From assembly GCA_963514005.1 (NCBI GenBank), contig OY740809.1, positions 18,290,001 through 18,354,000 of the forward strand: a stretch of DNA of 64,000 bases, in the 5' to 3' direction. Source of the stretch: Raja brachyura. Taxonomy: Eukaryota. Shown here in pieces: positions 60,001 to 64,000 of this stretch; positions within the stretch are counted from its first letter, which is position 1, and each line of letters starts with the position of its first letter. A program made the position numbers.

Positions 60001-63000
60001 ACAATCTGCTTAAGGGCAGTTGATTATGGGCTATCATGCACTCACGTGGTATTCACATGCCTGAAACTGAATAAATATATTGATAAAAAATCAATTCAAA
60101 AATGGATGCAAATTGTTCATTTTCTCGATCACAACCCAAGACTCTTCCAAAATGTTGTTGTTCTACAAATTGTTACCAATCGGATGTCCCAGAGTTCCTT
60201 TATGGATCATACCAGCTGACATTCAAACTCTTAATAATTGAAAATTATATTCATAATTTATGGCATGTCTCGAAATTGGCCATTTAAACCAAAGTGACGA
60301 GTAGATAAGAGATTAGCTGACACATGGAATAGATGCATGATGGTCCATTACATATTACAAAGCAGACAATAATACAAAAGAATAAAAAGCCAAACAGATG
60401 TATTGCTGAACTTTGACATTCTCCCCTGGAATACAGATAACCATGTACTGAGCCATTTAAAAATGGTAACACTTACAGATCACAGTGTTTAAACAGACAT
60501 AGTTCTTGGATGAATATTATCAAAGAAAAATCCGAAGGTTCATTGGCATTGCTATGTAACCCTGAATATCATGAAGGAAAGTGCTTCCTCTGTTTTTTTG
60601 TTTTTTCTTCTCAAGATGCATACTTCGAAATTGCTCTTTTCAACCATCTCATTGTGAATGGAGAGCAGGGCCGAAGTACAGGTATCACGAAATGCAAATA
60701 TCCTGCAGAGCTTGGCTATAAAACCTTTTGTTATAGAAAATCATATTATAAAACAATTGTGCCAATGGAGAAAAGGGGTAATAGCCACAATAATAAAGTT
60801 CGGTTTTTTTTAATGCAGGATTTTCATAAAATGATTTTTTTCTTATAACTTTAAGTTAATTGTGTTACTGTAAACTAAAAGTAACAAAGACTGCATGTAA
60901 CATTATTTACGGAGTATCATTGCACAAGTATCAATGGAAGCGATCACTTGCCCATTTCAGTGGCCATCCACCGTGAACACAGCAGCTGTGTTCTGAAGAG
61001 ACGATGGTGCTTAATTACTGTGGGGAGGCTACATGGAAACAGATTTTTTCCAAAACAGATTTTTTTTTTTTGCCTGCCAATTTCCAAAGTAATATTTAAG
61101 TGGTTCTCTAGTTCCTGAATGAAATCCCTTTACTAATCAATTCATTCCTCCTAATGCAAATAGTATCCTTTAATTCATCAATCAAGTTATATCCAATTTG
61201 TGTAATGGAAACATGTGTTTTAGCAGAAGTACCTGTATCTGACCTTATACAAGGCTTGTGATCTGTGCTATGGCCACTAGCTTTTAGCTCAAGCTCGAAA
61301 ACGACCTCCTATTATTGTGAAAGCATCTTTCATTAAGCTCTTTCAGTCTATCTGAAGCAAAAATATTCTTCCAGCCGTTCTTCAAAACATAACATGTAAA
61401 CTTTGGAATCATGTTGGCCATTCCATTTCTGAAATATATCAAATGCGTCAATGTTGTTTTTGAAGTAGGATGTGCTTTATAATTTCTTAATCAAATCAAT
61501 GTGACCTCGGAGACATAACAGACTGCAGTGCTGGAATCTGAAGCAAACCCGCTATTCAGTGGGTCAGGCAGCATCTGTAGAGGCAGAGGGATGGTCAACG
61601 TTTCCGGTCGAGGCCCTGCATGTGCACAAAGCGTGTAGAGGGCAGATAGCCACATAAAGAGGTGAGAGGGAGAGGTGAGACAGGGGTTGGCAGGCAACAG
61701 CTGGAACCAGGTGAGGAAGGGGTTGGTAGGAGATGGGGGCAGACGTGTGGTGGGGAGGGTGGAGGTAGAGACAGAGGCTGGAGGACGATAAGTGGTGACA
61801 CAAGGGGGCAGGCGCTGAGTATGTAAGTTGGTAAGTGAAATCAGGAAGGGTAATTGGCAGATGGAACTAGTTGGCGAAGGTGAATCAAACTGGGTGACAG
61901 AGGAGATGGAGGGTGGTTTGGTGATCCTGACTGGATCAGAAGTAGAGAGTGAGGAGCACAGGTGAAACTAGATAATTCCATGTTCATGCCATTAGGTTGG
62001 AAACTACCCAGGCAGAGTATTAGGTATTGTTCTTCTCATAGAGTCGCAGTGTGGAAACAAGCCTTTCTGCCCAACTTACCCACACTGATCAACATGTCCC
62101 ATCTGCACTAGTACCACTTGCCTGCATATGGCCCATATTCCTCTAAACCTGTCCTATCCATGTACCTGTCTAATTGCTTCTTAAACGTTGCAATAGTCCC
62201 TGCCACAACTCCCTTCCATACACCAACCACCCTTTATATGAAAAAGTTTCCCCTCAGATTCCTATAAAATCTTTCCCCCTTCACATTAAACCTATTCCCT
62301 ATGGACCTCGATTCCCCAACTCTGGGCAAAAGATTCTATGCGTCTACCCGATCTATTCCTCTCATGATTTTATACACATTGTATATACAGATGCTAGTTT
62401 GGGTTTGTCCACACCTTGGCATTCGGGAAGACAAAGGATATACAGGTTGGTGTGAGAATGGGAAGGGGCCATGAACTGGGAGTTCATTAGGGCTAAGTAT
62501 AATCTCAGTATTGTGCTTTTTAAAACAATTCTCATTCCATGTAACATCCATCAATAAATTCCACTCCTTCCTGGTCTGAAGAAGGGACACAACTGGAAAT
62601 GTTTCCTATCCAGGTTCTCCAGAGATGTGTGTAGAAAGGAACTGCAGATGCTAGTTTATACCGAAGATCGACACAAAGCCCTGGGTTCACTGCATTGTGT
62701 CTATCTCCAGAGATGCTGCCTTCCCCGCTGAGTTACTCCAACACTTTTTGTCTCTTTTAGTAAATCAACATCCGCAGTTCGTTGTATTTCTATTTGATAT
62801 CTCATTTGTACAACATGATTGCTTTTGGCTTCTGTTTTGACAACATGAAGTATAACAATAGAATGGTAACAAGTTCCCACGTTCTTCCGAATCTTTAAAT
62901 CCCCACCTAACTAATGGACAATTCAACATAAAATCAGGAGCAGCCAACTCTCACGCATTGAGCGTGAGAATCACGCATTTCGCCAAATTCTCATGCTCTC

Positions 63001-64000
63001 ACGCTGATCACAGAATTTTTCACGGTCTGTCCTGAGAAATTATGTGACCAATGAGAATTTCAAAACTAATATCAACTGCATGGGCCGCGGGTGTTGGGGA
63101 GCCGGGGCGGAGGGAGGGATGGAGTCTCAGTGTAAGAGTCCCGGGGGTTCGTTGGAAGCGTTGTGCCACTGCCGTGAGAGTCTCTGTGCTGACTTCGCCC
63201 TGGTGACCAGCATGGACCAGGCTGCGGCTCGGTGCATCCTGGAGAACAACCAGTGGCTGCTGGAAGTGGGTACCAAGCACTTTGCAGAAGCATTGGAAGA
63301 TAGTGGCCTTCAAATGGGGGTGGTTGGAGAAAGCATCCTCCTTGCCTGCTAGATTTTACCTGCAGGACAGGTGACGTTTCAGTCTGAAGAAGGGTCTCGA
63401 CCCGAAACTTCACCCGTTCCTTCTCTCCAGGGATGCTGCCTGTCCCGCTGATTTTCTCCAGCATTTTTGTATCTAATTCTTGCTGATATGCCTTACTGGC
63501 TCATACCGGCTTCCATTTATGTCGATTGTGTTTGGAACTTGGGATCAGAGTTTCTTGACAAAAGATTGGCTATTTGCGACAGAGACAGAAAAAAAGGACA
63601 GTGGTGGCTTTGCACTCAATCACTGAGTATTTGCAATGCAGATGTCAATAAATCTGTAGATATTATGGAATCAAGGTATTCTGGGTTAGTGCCAGGAAGT
63701 GGTGCTGAGGTACTGGTCTTTCATTGTCACGTGCCAACATACAGTGAAATACTTTGTTGAATGTGCTATCCAGTGAAATCATACCATGCATGAGTACAAC
63801 AGGTATGCAAAAAGAGAAAGGTAGAATATGGTGTTACATCTACAGAGAAAGTGCAGCAGAAAGGAGGTAGGTTGGGAGATAGGGAATACATCCTTAATTC
63901 TTGAGAGATCTGTGCAAGAGTCTGATAACAGTGGGAAAGAAACTGTTCTTCAATCTGGTGTATGCTTTGGTATCTTCTTTCAAGCTCTTGTATGTCCTGC

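What the first reader, a model, noticed from the sequence alone, without database searches (positions are those of the whole stretch)
62935..63350. Transposon-like end carrying a captured TDP2 promoter, exon 1 (UBA-like domain) and splice donor
Seen: a TIR-like start (CAGGAGCAGCCAAC) with clustered TCACGC repeats, then CCAAT (63048), a GC box GGGGCGGAG (63104), an ATG (63119) and 49 open codons ending exactly at GAA|GTGGGT. The region is CpG-rich. Known: the pattern LC..FA.V...D.A.A.C.L..N.W..E is the N-terminal UBA-like domain of TDP2, and as I recall vertebrate TDP2 exon 1 ends after this E. Inference: similarity stops at a GT donor, so this is a DNA-level capture of a host gene 5' end by a cut-and-paste element (Pack-TIR style), not a retrocopy. 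Such captures are well known in plants and rarely reported in vertebrates. No other TDP2 exon was seen in the window.
Basis: partly seen in the sequence, partly recalled or inferred. Interest (0 to 1): 0.85.

Follow-up and report, generated by a model that had tools for sequence, protein, structure and literature searches.

The report
Out-of-place TDP2-like first exon
A short coding piece resembling the first exon of the DNA-repair gene TDP2 sits inside an intron of the brain-synapse gene DLGAP3 in a shark or ray genome; it is probably a stray partial gene copy or a nested gene, and nothing shows that a transposon carried it there.

Summary
These are an ATG at 63119, 49 open codons, a GAA|GTGGGT donor, a CCAAT box, a GC box and a real cluster of TCACGC motifs. 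The 49 residues are a UBA-like domain. Its only significant solved relative is the TDP2 UBA domain (E 2e-4), and the similarity ends at or within 6 residues of the donor.

The large first coding exon of a DLGAP3 orthologue lies at 51792-52826 on the same strand (92% identical to a shark protein). The rest of DLGAP3 is not in the window. The TDP2-like exon therefore lies about 10.3 kb into a DLGAP3 intron, not head-to-head with ACOT13 as in human, chicken, Fugu and zebrafish.

Nothing supports a transposon vehicle. The 'TIR' 14-mer has no partner, the block is single-copy in the window, and the only database relative is a single-member cluster.

That relative is an unnamed 110-aa ORF. It matches through the donor into the 'intron', and the exon is no better conserved than that flank.

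Best reading (0.45): a displaced DNA-level copy of a TDP2 5' end. Main rival (0.35): the first exon of an intact nested TDP2-family gene. The window ends 735 bases downstream, so this stays open.

The parts
63119..63265 (+). TDP2-type first coding exon: ATG plus 49 codons encoding an N-terminal tail and the first ~30 residues of a UBA-like domain
   Evidence: Translation. PDB phmmer gives TDP2 UBA 6q00_B at E 2.2e-4, query 18-49. Pfam UBA_4 gives E 1.2e-3 and 19.1 bits, below the 21.8 cut-off, covering profile positions 2-30 of 43. In the ESM Atlas the nearest named cluster is UBA_4, score 0.90 with 206 shared features.
63266..63271 (+). Candidate splice donor GTGGGT (phase 0)
   Evidence: In the longer stop-to-stop frame the Pfam UBA_4 match ends at residue 86, which is base 63265.
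63266..63352 (+). In-frame read-through of 28 codons ending in TAG, conserved with the same end in the unnamed relative P0002
   Evidence: 21 of 28 residues are identical, with no gap. An AlphaFold model continues a helix across the junction at pLDDT 73-77. The similarity to TDP2 extends only 6 weak residues into this stretch.
63048..63112 (+). Promoter-like elements: CCAAT (63048-63052) and GC box GGGGCGGAG (63104-63112)
   Evidence: Read directly. Function is inferred from the consensus only.
62949..63004 (.). Cluster of TCTCACGC-type 8-mers (3 exact, one of them inverted, plus TCTCATGC and AATCACGC), 115-170 bases upstream of the ATG
   Evidence: 4 of 13 TCACGC matches lie here, and 0 of 300 simulations reach a cluster of 3.
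62935..62948 (+).
62786..63367 (.). Block with no other copy in the window; it contains everything above
   Evidence: Self-BLASTN.
62574..62785 (.). Copy or copies of an abundant dispersed short repeat bounding the block on the left
   Evidence: One search gives many HSPs across the window. repeat D1 links 62704-62748 to 63424-63468 at 84% identity.
63368..63475 (.). A separate copy of the same dispersed repeat bounding the block on the right
   Evidence: about 37 HSPs to other places in the window. It matches the same part of the repeat as the left copy, so the two are not halves of one split element.
51792..52826 (+). Context: large first coding exon (aa 1-345) of a DLGAP3 orthologue, with donor CAG|GTAGGT at 52826/52827 (phase 0)
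   Evidence: 92%, 91% and 89% identity to shark and ray proteins, 81% to Callorhinchus DLGAP3; tblastn maps only aa 1-345 in the window.

Best explanation
The block 62786-63367 carries a genuine TDP2-type first exon. It has a start codon, an N-terminal tail, most of a UBA-like domain and a phase-0 GT donor, and promoter-like sequence lies in front of it. It is not at the conserved TDP2 locus. It lies about 10.3 kb inside the intron that follows the first coding exon of DLGAP3, on the same strand, in an elasmobranch genome.

The most likely reading is a displaced DNA-level copy of the 5' end of a TDP2 gene, that is, a gene fragment holding exon 1 and the start of intron 1. It now evolves about as fast as the non-coding DNA beside it. 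It may still fire as a promoter, but it does not make TDP2.

Shown: the exon, its family, its position relative to DLGAP3, and its single-copy status in the window. Inferred: that it is a fragment and not a whole gene, that it is unconstrained, and that the upstream sequence came from TDP2. How it was copied is unknown, and no transposon signature was found.
For: 1. Family.
- The TDP2 UBA domain is the only significant PDB hit: E 2.2e-4 for the exon and 6.9e-5 with the read-through. The next UBA-like domain, p47, scores E 0.81.
- Pfam UBA_4 gives E 1.2e-3.
- The ESM Atlas nearest named cluster is UBA_4, score 0.90.
- TDP2 UBA is the top Foldseek hit, with 30 columns, rmsd 1.4 A and 47% identity. 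That hit is not significant, at E 2.2.

2. The position is not canonical.
- DLGAP3 aa 1-345 map to 51792-52826 on the + strand, and no later DLGAP3 exon is in the window.
- ACOT13 (THEM2) and TDP2 (TTRAP) are head-to-head in human, chicken and Fugu (PMC1487180, passage).
- ACOT13, C6orf62 and GMNN flank TDP2 in human and tdp2b in zebrafish (PMC11369425, passages).
- No thioesterase domain was found on the minus strand in 391 of 391 ORFs of at least 40 aa from 1 to 56.9 kb. None was found in 129 ORFs of at least 30 aa on both strands from 56.9 to 63.5 kb.

3. The relationship is at the DNA level and shows no extra constraint on the exon.
- The only relative among 1.84 billion representatives is P0002 (E 8.6e-13). 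It matches through the donor to the same stop.
- Identity is 34 of 49 residues in the exon, split as 25 of 32 in the UBA part and 9 of 17 in the tail. It is 21 of 28 in the read-through.

4. No protein of 87-2000 aa or 194-2000 aa carrying this exon was found. The collection does hold annotated proteomes of several sharks and rays.
Against: - The window ends 735 bases after the donor, so a full set of downstream TDP2 exons cannot be excluded.
- The ORF, a good start context and the GT donor are intact here, and they are implied in P0002 as well. The block is also CpG-island-like. Both points fit a working first exon.
- The constraint argument rests on protein-level identity over 28 and 49 codons only. 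It assumes the read-through is neutral and that P0002 is an orthologue. P0002 could instead be the parent locus.
- The synteny rule comes from bony vertebrates. I could not check the TDP2 locus of any cartilaginous fish.
- Pfam scans of single exons are insensitive, and short ACOT13 exons could be missed.
- The word-based searches missed even P0002 at 70% identity, so their silence is weak evidence.
Confidence: 0.45

Rival explanations
1. It is the true first exon and promoter of an intact TDP2-family gene nested in the DLGAP3 intron, with the remaining exons beyond the end of the window. The gene would be either the species' only TDP2, relocated, or an extra paralogue.
For: - The ATG, ORF and donor are intact, CCAAT and GC boxes lie upstream, and the block is CpG-island-like.
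- The gene points out of the window with only 735 bases left.
- The same exon is kept open in a second organism.
- From recall, not from a call: the human DLGAP3/KIAA0319L region (1p34) is paralogous to the KIAA0319/TDP2 region (6p22). A retained ancient duplicate beside DLGAP3 is therefore conceivable.
Against: - The exon lies in the same-strand intron of DLGAP3, not beside ACOT13 as in four bony vertebrates.
- The exon is no better conserved than the adjoining read-through: 34 of 49 against 21 of 28 residues.
- No annotated protein carrying this exon was found. This evidence is weak.
Confidence: 0.35
2. One reading: the block is the cargo at one end of a cut-and-paste (Pack-TIR type) element that captured the TDP2 promoter, exon 1 and donor.
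For: - A non-random cluster of short repeats lies next to the proposed end, as subterminal repeats do in some DNA transposons.
- The position is out of place.
- Pack-TIRs exist in vertebrates: 370 were found in 100 animal genomes, 81 of them vertebrate (PMC8277862; abstract and passages seen).
Against: - The 14-mer has no inverted partner, even with up to 2 mismatches.
- No inverted repeat frames the block.
- The block has no second copy in 64 kb.
- No transposase ORF lies nearby; only retroelement and Penelope-like debris was found.
- The single database relative is a one-member cluster on one contig.
- The other end would have to lie beyond the window.
Confidence: 0.05
3. The block acts as an alternative promoter and first exon of DLGAP3. 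Its donor would join the next DLGAP3 exon and give a protein with a partial UBA-like head on the DLGAP3 body.
For: - It is on the same strand as DLGAP3 and lies inside the intron after the first coding exon.
- Both donors are phase 0, so the frame would be kept.
- Promoter-like features are present.
Against: - Phase agreement has a one-in-three chance.
- No DLGAP-type protein with such an N-terminus turned up.
- The UBA-like domain would be truncated at profile position 30 of 43.
Confidence: 0.07
4. It is not TDP2-derived. It would be a chance open frame or a piece of another UBA-like family.
For: - Pfam UBA_4 is below its curated cut-off, at 19.1 against 21.8 bits.
- The Foldseek E-value is 2.2.
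- phmmer over 1.84 billion representatives found no full-length TDP2 at E <= 0.001.
Against: - The PDB hit to the TDP2 UBA at E 2e-4 has about 45% identity over 32 residues, and other UBA-like domains in the PDB score E >= 0.8.
- An independent language-model search lands on UBA_4.
- The frame is kept open in a second organism.
Confidence: 0.08

Closest known systems
TDP2 (TTRAP) exon 1 / UBA-like (UBA-L) domain
   Same: It has an N-terminal tail followed by a UBA-like domain. TDP2 is the best PDB match, with about 45% identity over 32 residues. Human UBA-L spans aa 26-63 (PMC5778467, passage), so an exon ending here would leave the last ~8 residues of the domain to the next exon.
   Different: It is not beside ACOT13. 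It lies in a DLGAP3 intron. No catalytic EEP exon is visible. It is no more conserved than the flanking sequence.
Pack-TIR / Pack-MULE captures (Tan et al. 2021, PMC8277862)
   Same: It is a DNA-level copy of part of a host gene, including non-coding sequence, at a new place. Some Pack-TIRs are transcribed and form chimeras with host genes (abstract).
   Different: Pack-TIRs are defined by recognisable TIR-element termini on both sides and an identified parental copy (passages). No terminus is recognisable here, and the parental copy could not be looked for.
Partial gene duplicates (gene fragments) and nested genes in long vertebrate introns
   Same: It is a single 5' exon with a promoter-like flank inside a long intron of an unrelated gene.
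   Different: It is on the same strand as the host gene and phase-compatible with it. It is also shared with at least one other organism.
DLGAP3 (SAPAP3) locus
   Same: The window holds its first coding exon, with 89-92% identity to shark and ray proteins and about 70% to tetrapod DLGAP3.
   Different: My one search for the pair, 'TDP2' with 'DLGAP3', found one paper, a review of epilepsy genetics seen only in the search listing, which holds each term once.

Membership tests
UBA-like domain (Pfam UBA_4) | Match to the family profile at or above the curated score | tested here: inconclusive
   The score is 19.1 bits against a cut-off of 21.8, E 1.2e-3, covering profile positions 2-30 of 43. It is supported by a PDB hit to a UBA_4-type domain and by the ESM Atlas nearest cluster, which is 98% UBA_4, at score 0.90.
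TDP2 gene (canonical orthologue) | N-terminal UBA-like domain most similar to that of TDP2 | tested here: met
   6q00_B gives E 2.2e-4, and 6.9e-5 with the read-through. The next UBA-like domain scores E 0.81.
TDP2 gene (canonical orthologue) | C-terminal Mg-dependent EEP phosphodiesterase domain encoded downstream | not testable with these tools
   No such domain was found in any scanned ORF of the window. The window ends 735 bases after the donor, and no genome of the source organism is on hand.
TDP2 gene (canonical orthologue) | Head-to-head with ACOT13 (THEM2), with C6orf62 and GMNN beyond it, as in human, chicken, Fugu and zebrafish | tested here: not met
   No thioesterase-domain ORF lies on the minus strand in 63 kb upstream. 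A DLGAP3 exon lies 10.3 kb upstream on the same strand instead. Caveats: single-exon Pfam scans are insensitive, and the rule is untested in cartilaginous fish.
TDP2 gene (canonical orthologue) | Exon 1 ends after the E that follows the conserved W of the UBA-like domain | not tested
No gene-structure source was available, and the isoform paper PMC5836098 is not held.
Pack-TIR (transposon-captured host fragment) | Terminal inverted repeats of a DNA transposon on both sides of the cargo | tested here: not met
   The 14-mer has no inverted match with up to 2 mismatches in 64 kb. No inverted pair frames the block. The far end could still lie beyond the window.
Pack-TIR (transposon-captured host fragment) | Target-site duplication flanking the element | not testable with these tools
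   It needs the second end or an empty orthologous site, and neither is available.
Pack-TIR (transposon-captured host fragment) | An identified parental copy elsewhere in the same genome, and for mobile families several copies | not testable with these tools
   The block is single-copy in the window, and one single-member relative exists in the protein collection.
DLGAP3 (context gene) | Full-length collinear match of the large first coding exon, closer to DLGAP3 than to DLGAP2 | tested here: met
   Identity is 81% to Callorhinchus DLGAP3 against 61% to Callorhinchus DLGAP2. Tetrapod DLGAP3 proteins score about 70% and tetrapod DLGAP2 proteins 56-60%.

The most novel reading that the evidence does not exclude
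A copied TDP2 promoter and first exon has been taken over as an alternative, phase-compatible first exon of DLGAP3 in elasmobranchs. This would give a synaptic scaffold protein a new ubiquitin-binding-like head. Alternatively, it was delivered there by a DNA transposon of a kind not yet described in cartilaginous fish.
Probability: 0.08. Interest if true: 0.6.

Novelty: new member of a known kind. Interest (0 to 1): 0.3.

Why it matters
If it is a stray 5' fragment, it is one more example of partial gene duplication landing in a long intron. Its value is mainly as an annotation warning: a gene finder could call a false TDP2 start here or a false 77-110 aa protein.

If it is a nested intact gene, it would show that TDP2 left its otherwise deeply conserved ACOT13 neighbourhood in elasmobranchs, or that they kept a second copy.

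Only the chimeric-first-exon reading or a proven transposon capture would interest a specialist, and neither has support yet.

Tried and rejected
- **Word-indexed protein search, exon alone.** Proteins of 87-2000 aa were searched, and no candidate shared three words with the query.
- **Word-indexed protein search, alignment of the window ORF and P0002.** Proteins of 194-2000 aa were searched, and none of 7997 candidates scored E <= 1. Both searches are weak, because the first missed P0002 itself.
- **phmmer over 1.84 billion representatives.** It gave only P0002 and P0003. P0003 is a 1142-aa cysteine-rich repeat protein at 34% identity in 6 stretches. I took it for a compositional match and did not pursue it.
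- **ESM Atlas with the DLGAP3 exon.** It was uninformative, with a best score of 0.81.
- **Foldseek of the 77-aa model against the PDB.** 0 of 44 matches had E <= 0.001. The model itself is only moderate, with pLDDT 69.2 and pTM 0.47.
- **Rfam at gathering score and tRNA scan of the whole window.** Both found nothing, so the flanking short repeat could not be typed.
- **Whole-frame Pfam scan.** The tool turned it down because the frames contain stops. I sent stop-free ORFs instead.
- **Pfam scans for a thioesterase (ACOT13-type) or EEP (TDP2 catalytic) domain.** All were negative. The domain names are recalled, not taken from a call.
  - 76 of the 83 ORFs of at least 90 aa. 6 of the 7 left out were scanned; 52969-53241 (+) was never scanned.
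  - 129 ORFs of at least 30 aa from 56.9 to 63.5 kb.
  - 391 of 391 minus-strand ORFs of at least 40 aa from 1 to 56.9 kb.
  - 237 of 335 plus-strand ORFs of at least 40 aa. The other 98 were dropped because at least half of each overlaps repeats found within the window.
  - 29 of 32 ORFs of at least 22 aa in the last 700 bases. The other 3 had been scanned.
- **The TDP2 isoform paper.** It might give the exon-1 boundary, but it is not held.
- **Joined models.** The exon and the contiguous read-through frame were each searched on their own.
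Full report
**What is there**

The window holds no N. On the + strand an ATG at 63119, in the context GGGATGG, opens 49 codons that end at 63265. GTGGGT follows directly. Of the GT dinucleotides nearby, this is the phase-0 one that ends the similarity.

The TCACGC cluster is not chance:
- 4 of the 13 matches in the window fall in 62951-63004.
- None of 300 first-order Markov simulations gave even 3 within 60 bases.
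- The repeated unit is an 8-mer, TCTCACGC. All 3 of its window occurrences are here, one of them inverted.

CpG enrichment is modest. CpG o/e is 0.62, against a median of 0.40, and the segment is one of 20 CpG-island-like segments in the window.

**What the exon encodes**

Several independent searches agree on a UBA-like domain:
- Pfam gives UBA_4 at E 1.2e-3, just under its cut-off, matching profile positions 2-30 of 43.
- Against all PDB chains the only significant hit is the TDP2 UBA domain, 6q00_B, at E 2.2e-4 over query 18-49.
- A language-model search lands on a UBA_4 cluster, with score 0.90, 206 shared features and recognition 3168.
- An AlphaFold model of the 77-residue read-through frame is moderate, at pLDDT 69.2. 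Its best PDB match is again the TDP2 UBA domain, over 30 columns at 1.4 A, but with a non-significant E of 2.2.

In the longer stop-to-stop frame the Pfam match ends at residue 86, which is base 63265. With the read-through added, HMMER extends the TDP2 alignment by only 6 weak residues.

Human UBA-L spans residues 26-63 (PMC5778467, passage). The last few residues of the domain would have to come from a next exon. I could not verify where exon 1 ends in other vertebrates.

Most of the window is retroelement debris:
- reverse-transcriptase fragments;
- ORFs matching Pfam ALKBH8_N, which from recall belong to LINE-type elements;
- what I take, from recall of the family, for a Penelope-like reverse-transcriptase ORF (385 aa, no Pfam match), overlapped at its end by a frame with a weak GIY-YIG match.

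One 382-codon open frame at 51765-52910 is different. It is 92%, 91% and 89% identical to annotated 'disks large-associated protein 2-like' proteins of three sharks and rays. It is 81% identical to Callorhinchus DLGAP3 and about 70% to tetrapod DLGAP3, against 56-61% to DLGAP2 proteins. The source is therefore an elasmobranch, and this is the large first coding exon of its DLGAP3 orthologue.

Local tblastn with five of these proteins maps residues 1-345 to 51792-52826, and no later exon anywhere in the window. The exon ends CAG|GTAGGT, phase 0. The TDP2-like exon therefore lies 10,293 bases into the following DLGAP3 intron, on the same strand.

This is not where TDP2 belongs in bony vertebrates:
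- THEM2 (ACOT13) and TTRAP (TDP2) are a head-to-head pair kept in human, chicken and Fugu (PMC1487180, passage).
- ACOT13, C6orf62 and GMNN lie upstream of human TDP2 and near zebrafish tdp2b. KIAA0319 and ALDH5A1 lie on the other side (PMC11369425, passages).
- I found no thioesterase-type ORF on the minus strand anywhere upstream, and no TDP2 catalytic domain in any scanned ORF.

These negatives are soft, because single exons score poorly against domain profiles. The presence of DLGAP3 is solid.

**The transposon claim**

- The 14-mer at 62935 has no other match on either strand with up to 2 mismatches.
- No inverted repeat frames the block.
- The segment 62786-63367 has no second copy in the window.
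- It is bounded by two separate copies of a very abundant short dispersed repeat, at 62574-62785 and 63368-63475. Both match the same part of other copies, so they are not the halves of one interrupted element.
- No transposase is nearby.
- Pack-TIRs are documented in animals: 370 in 100 genomes, 81 of them vertebrate. They are defined by recognisable element termini and an identified parental copy (PMC8277862; abstract and passages seen). Neither could be shown here.

The short-repeat cluster would suit subterminal transposon repeats, but it would suit a cluster of promoter binding sites equally well.

**The one relative**

phmmer over 1.84 billion representatives found two proteins at E <= 0.001.

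P0002 (E 8.6e-13) is an unnamed 110-residue ORF from one 4646-base contig, alone in its cluster. It has these properties:
- It aligns to the exon and then straight on through the donor, for 28 more codons, to the same stop.
- Identity is 34 of 49 in the exon (25 of 32 in the UBA part, 9 of 17 in the tail, with one in-frame gap).
- Identity is 21 of 28 in the read-through.
- Only 6 of the 25 residues upstream of the ATG match, with an 8-column gap.

Two things follow. First, the relationship is at the DNA level and is not a retrocopy. Second, the exon is no better conserved than the sequence after the donor, which is not what a working UBA-like domain next to a neutral intron should show.

The sample is small and at the protein level only. 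I cannot tell whether P0002 is the orthologue of this block or the parent locus. Alternatively the whole 77-codon frame is under weak constraint, and the model does carry a helix across the junction at pLDDT 73-77.

The other hit, P0003, is a cysteine-rich repeat protein that I regard as a compositional match.

**Verdict**

The family assignment is moderately supported. 'Transposon-borne' is unsupported.

- I put 0.45 on a displaced partial copy of a TDP2 5' end lying in a DLGAP3 intron.
- I put 0.35 on the first exon of an intact nested TDP2-family gene whose remaining exons lie beyond the window. From recall, the human DLGAP3/KIAA0319L and KIAA0319/TDP2 regions are paralogous, which keeps an old duplicate conceivable.
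- The rest is shared among three readings: an exapted alternative first exon of DLGAP3 (both donors are phase 0), a Pack-TIR, and a non-TDP2 frame.

The decisive data are the next 50-200 kb, a genome-wide BLASTN and RNA junctions, and all of them lie outside what these tools can reach. My one literature search for the pair, 'TDP2' with 'DLGAP3', found one paper, an epilepsy-genetics review seen only in the search listing, which holds each term once.

Noticed in passing
window 51792-52826 (+): Large first coding exon of a DLGAP3 orthologue (aa 1-345). It is 89-92% identical to shark and ray proteins annotated as 'disks large-associated protein 2-like', which by their tetrapod matches look like DLGAP3 orthologues. 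It includes a His/Gln-rich run.
   Followed up: yes
window 47338-48680 (+): A 385-codon open frame with no Pfam match, which I take from recall for a Penelope-like reverse transcriptase. A frame overlapping its end (48354-48680) has a weak GIY-YIG match (E 4.5e-4).
   Followed up: partly
window 23200-24200: The strongest CpG island of the window (GC 0.61, CpG o/e about 1.1, 42 CpG in 400 bases). Long minus-strand open frames with no Pfam match lie over it, and a weak L1 ORF1-type match lies next to it (22423-22668, -). It could be a LINE 5' end or the DLGAP3 promoter.
   Followed up: no
window 62574-62785, 63368-63475 and dozens of other places: A very abundant short dispersed repeat, often found as inverted pairs. 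The 63368-63475 copy alone has about 37 BLASTN matches in the window. Rfam and the tRNA scan give nothing for it. From recall it resembles a common elasmobranch SINE-like element.
   Followed up: partly
window 58927-59187 (-), within a CpG-island-like segment 59001-59640: An 87-aa open frame with a sub-threshold FLYWCH-type match (E 6.8e-5, 23.2 bits against a cut-off of 36). It lies between the DLGAP3 exon and the TDP2-like exon.
   Followed up: no
window 7797-8348 (-), 16940-17617 (+), 10654-11157 (+), 19351-20034 (-): Retroelement fragments: two ORFs matching Pfam ALKBH8_N (E 1e-18 and 9e-11), which from recall belong to LINE-type elements, and two reverse-transcriptase pieces (E 3e-14 and 1e-24).
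   Followed up: no
window 62949-62969: Two of the TCTCACGC units form a perfect 8-base inverted repeat with a 5-base spacer. From recall, its core GCGTGA resembles the core of xenobiotic/hypoxia-type response elements. This was not tested.
   Followed up: no
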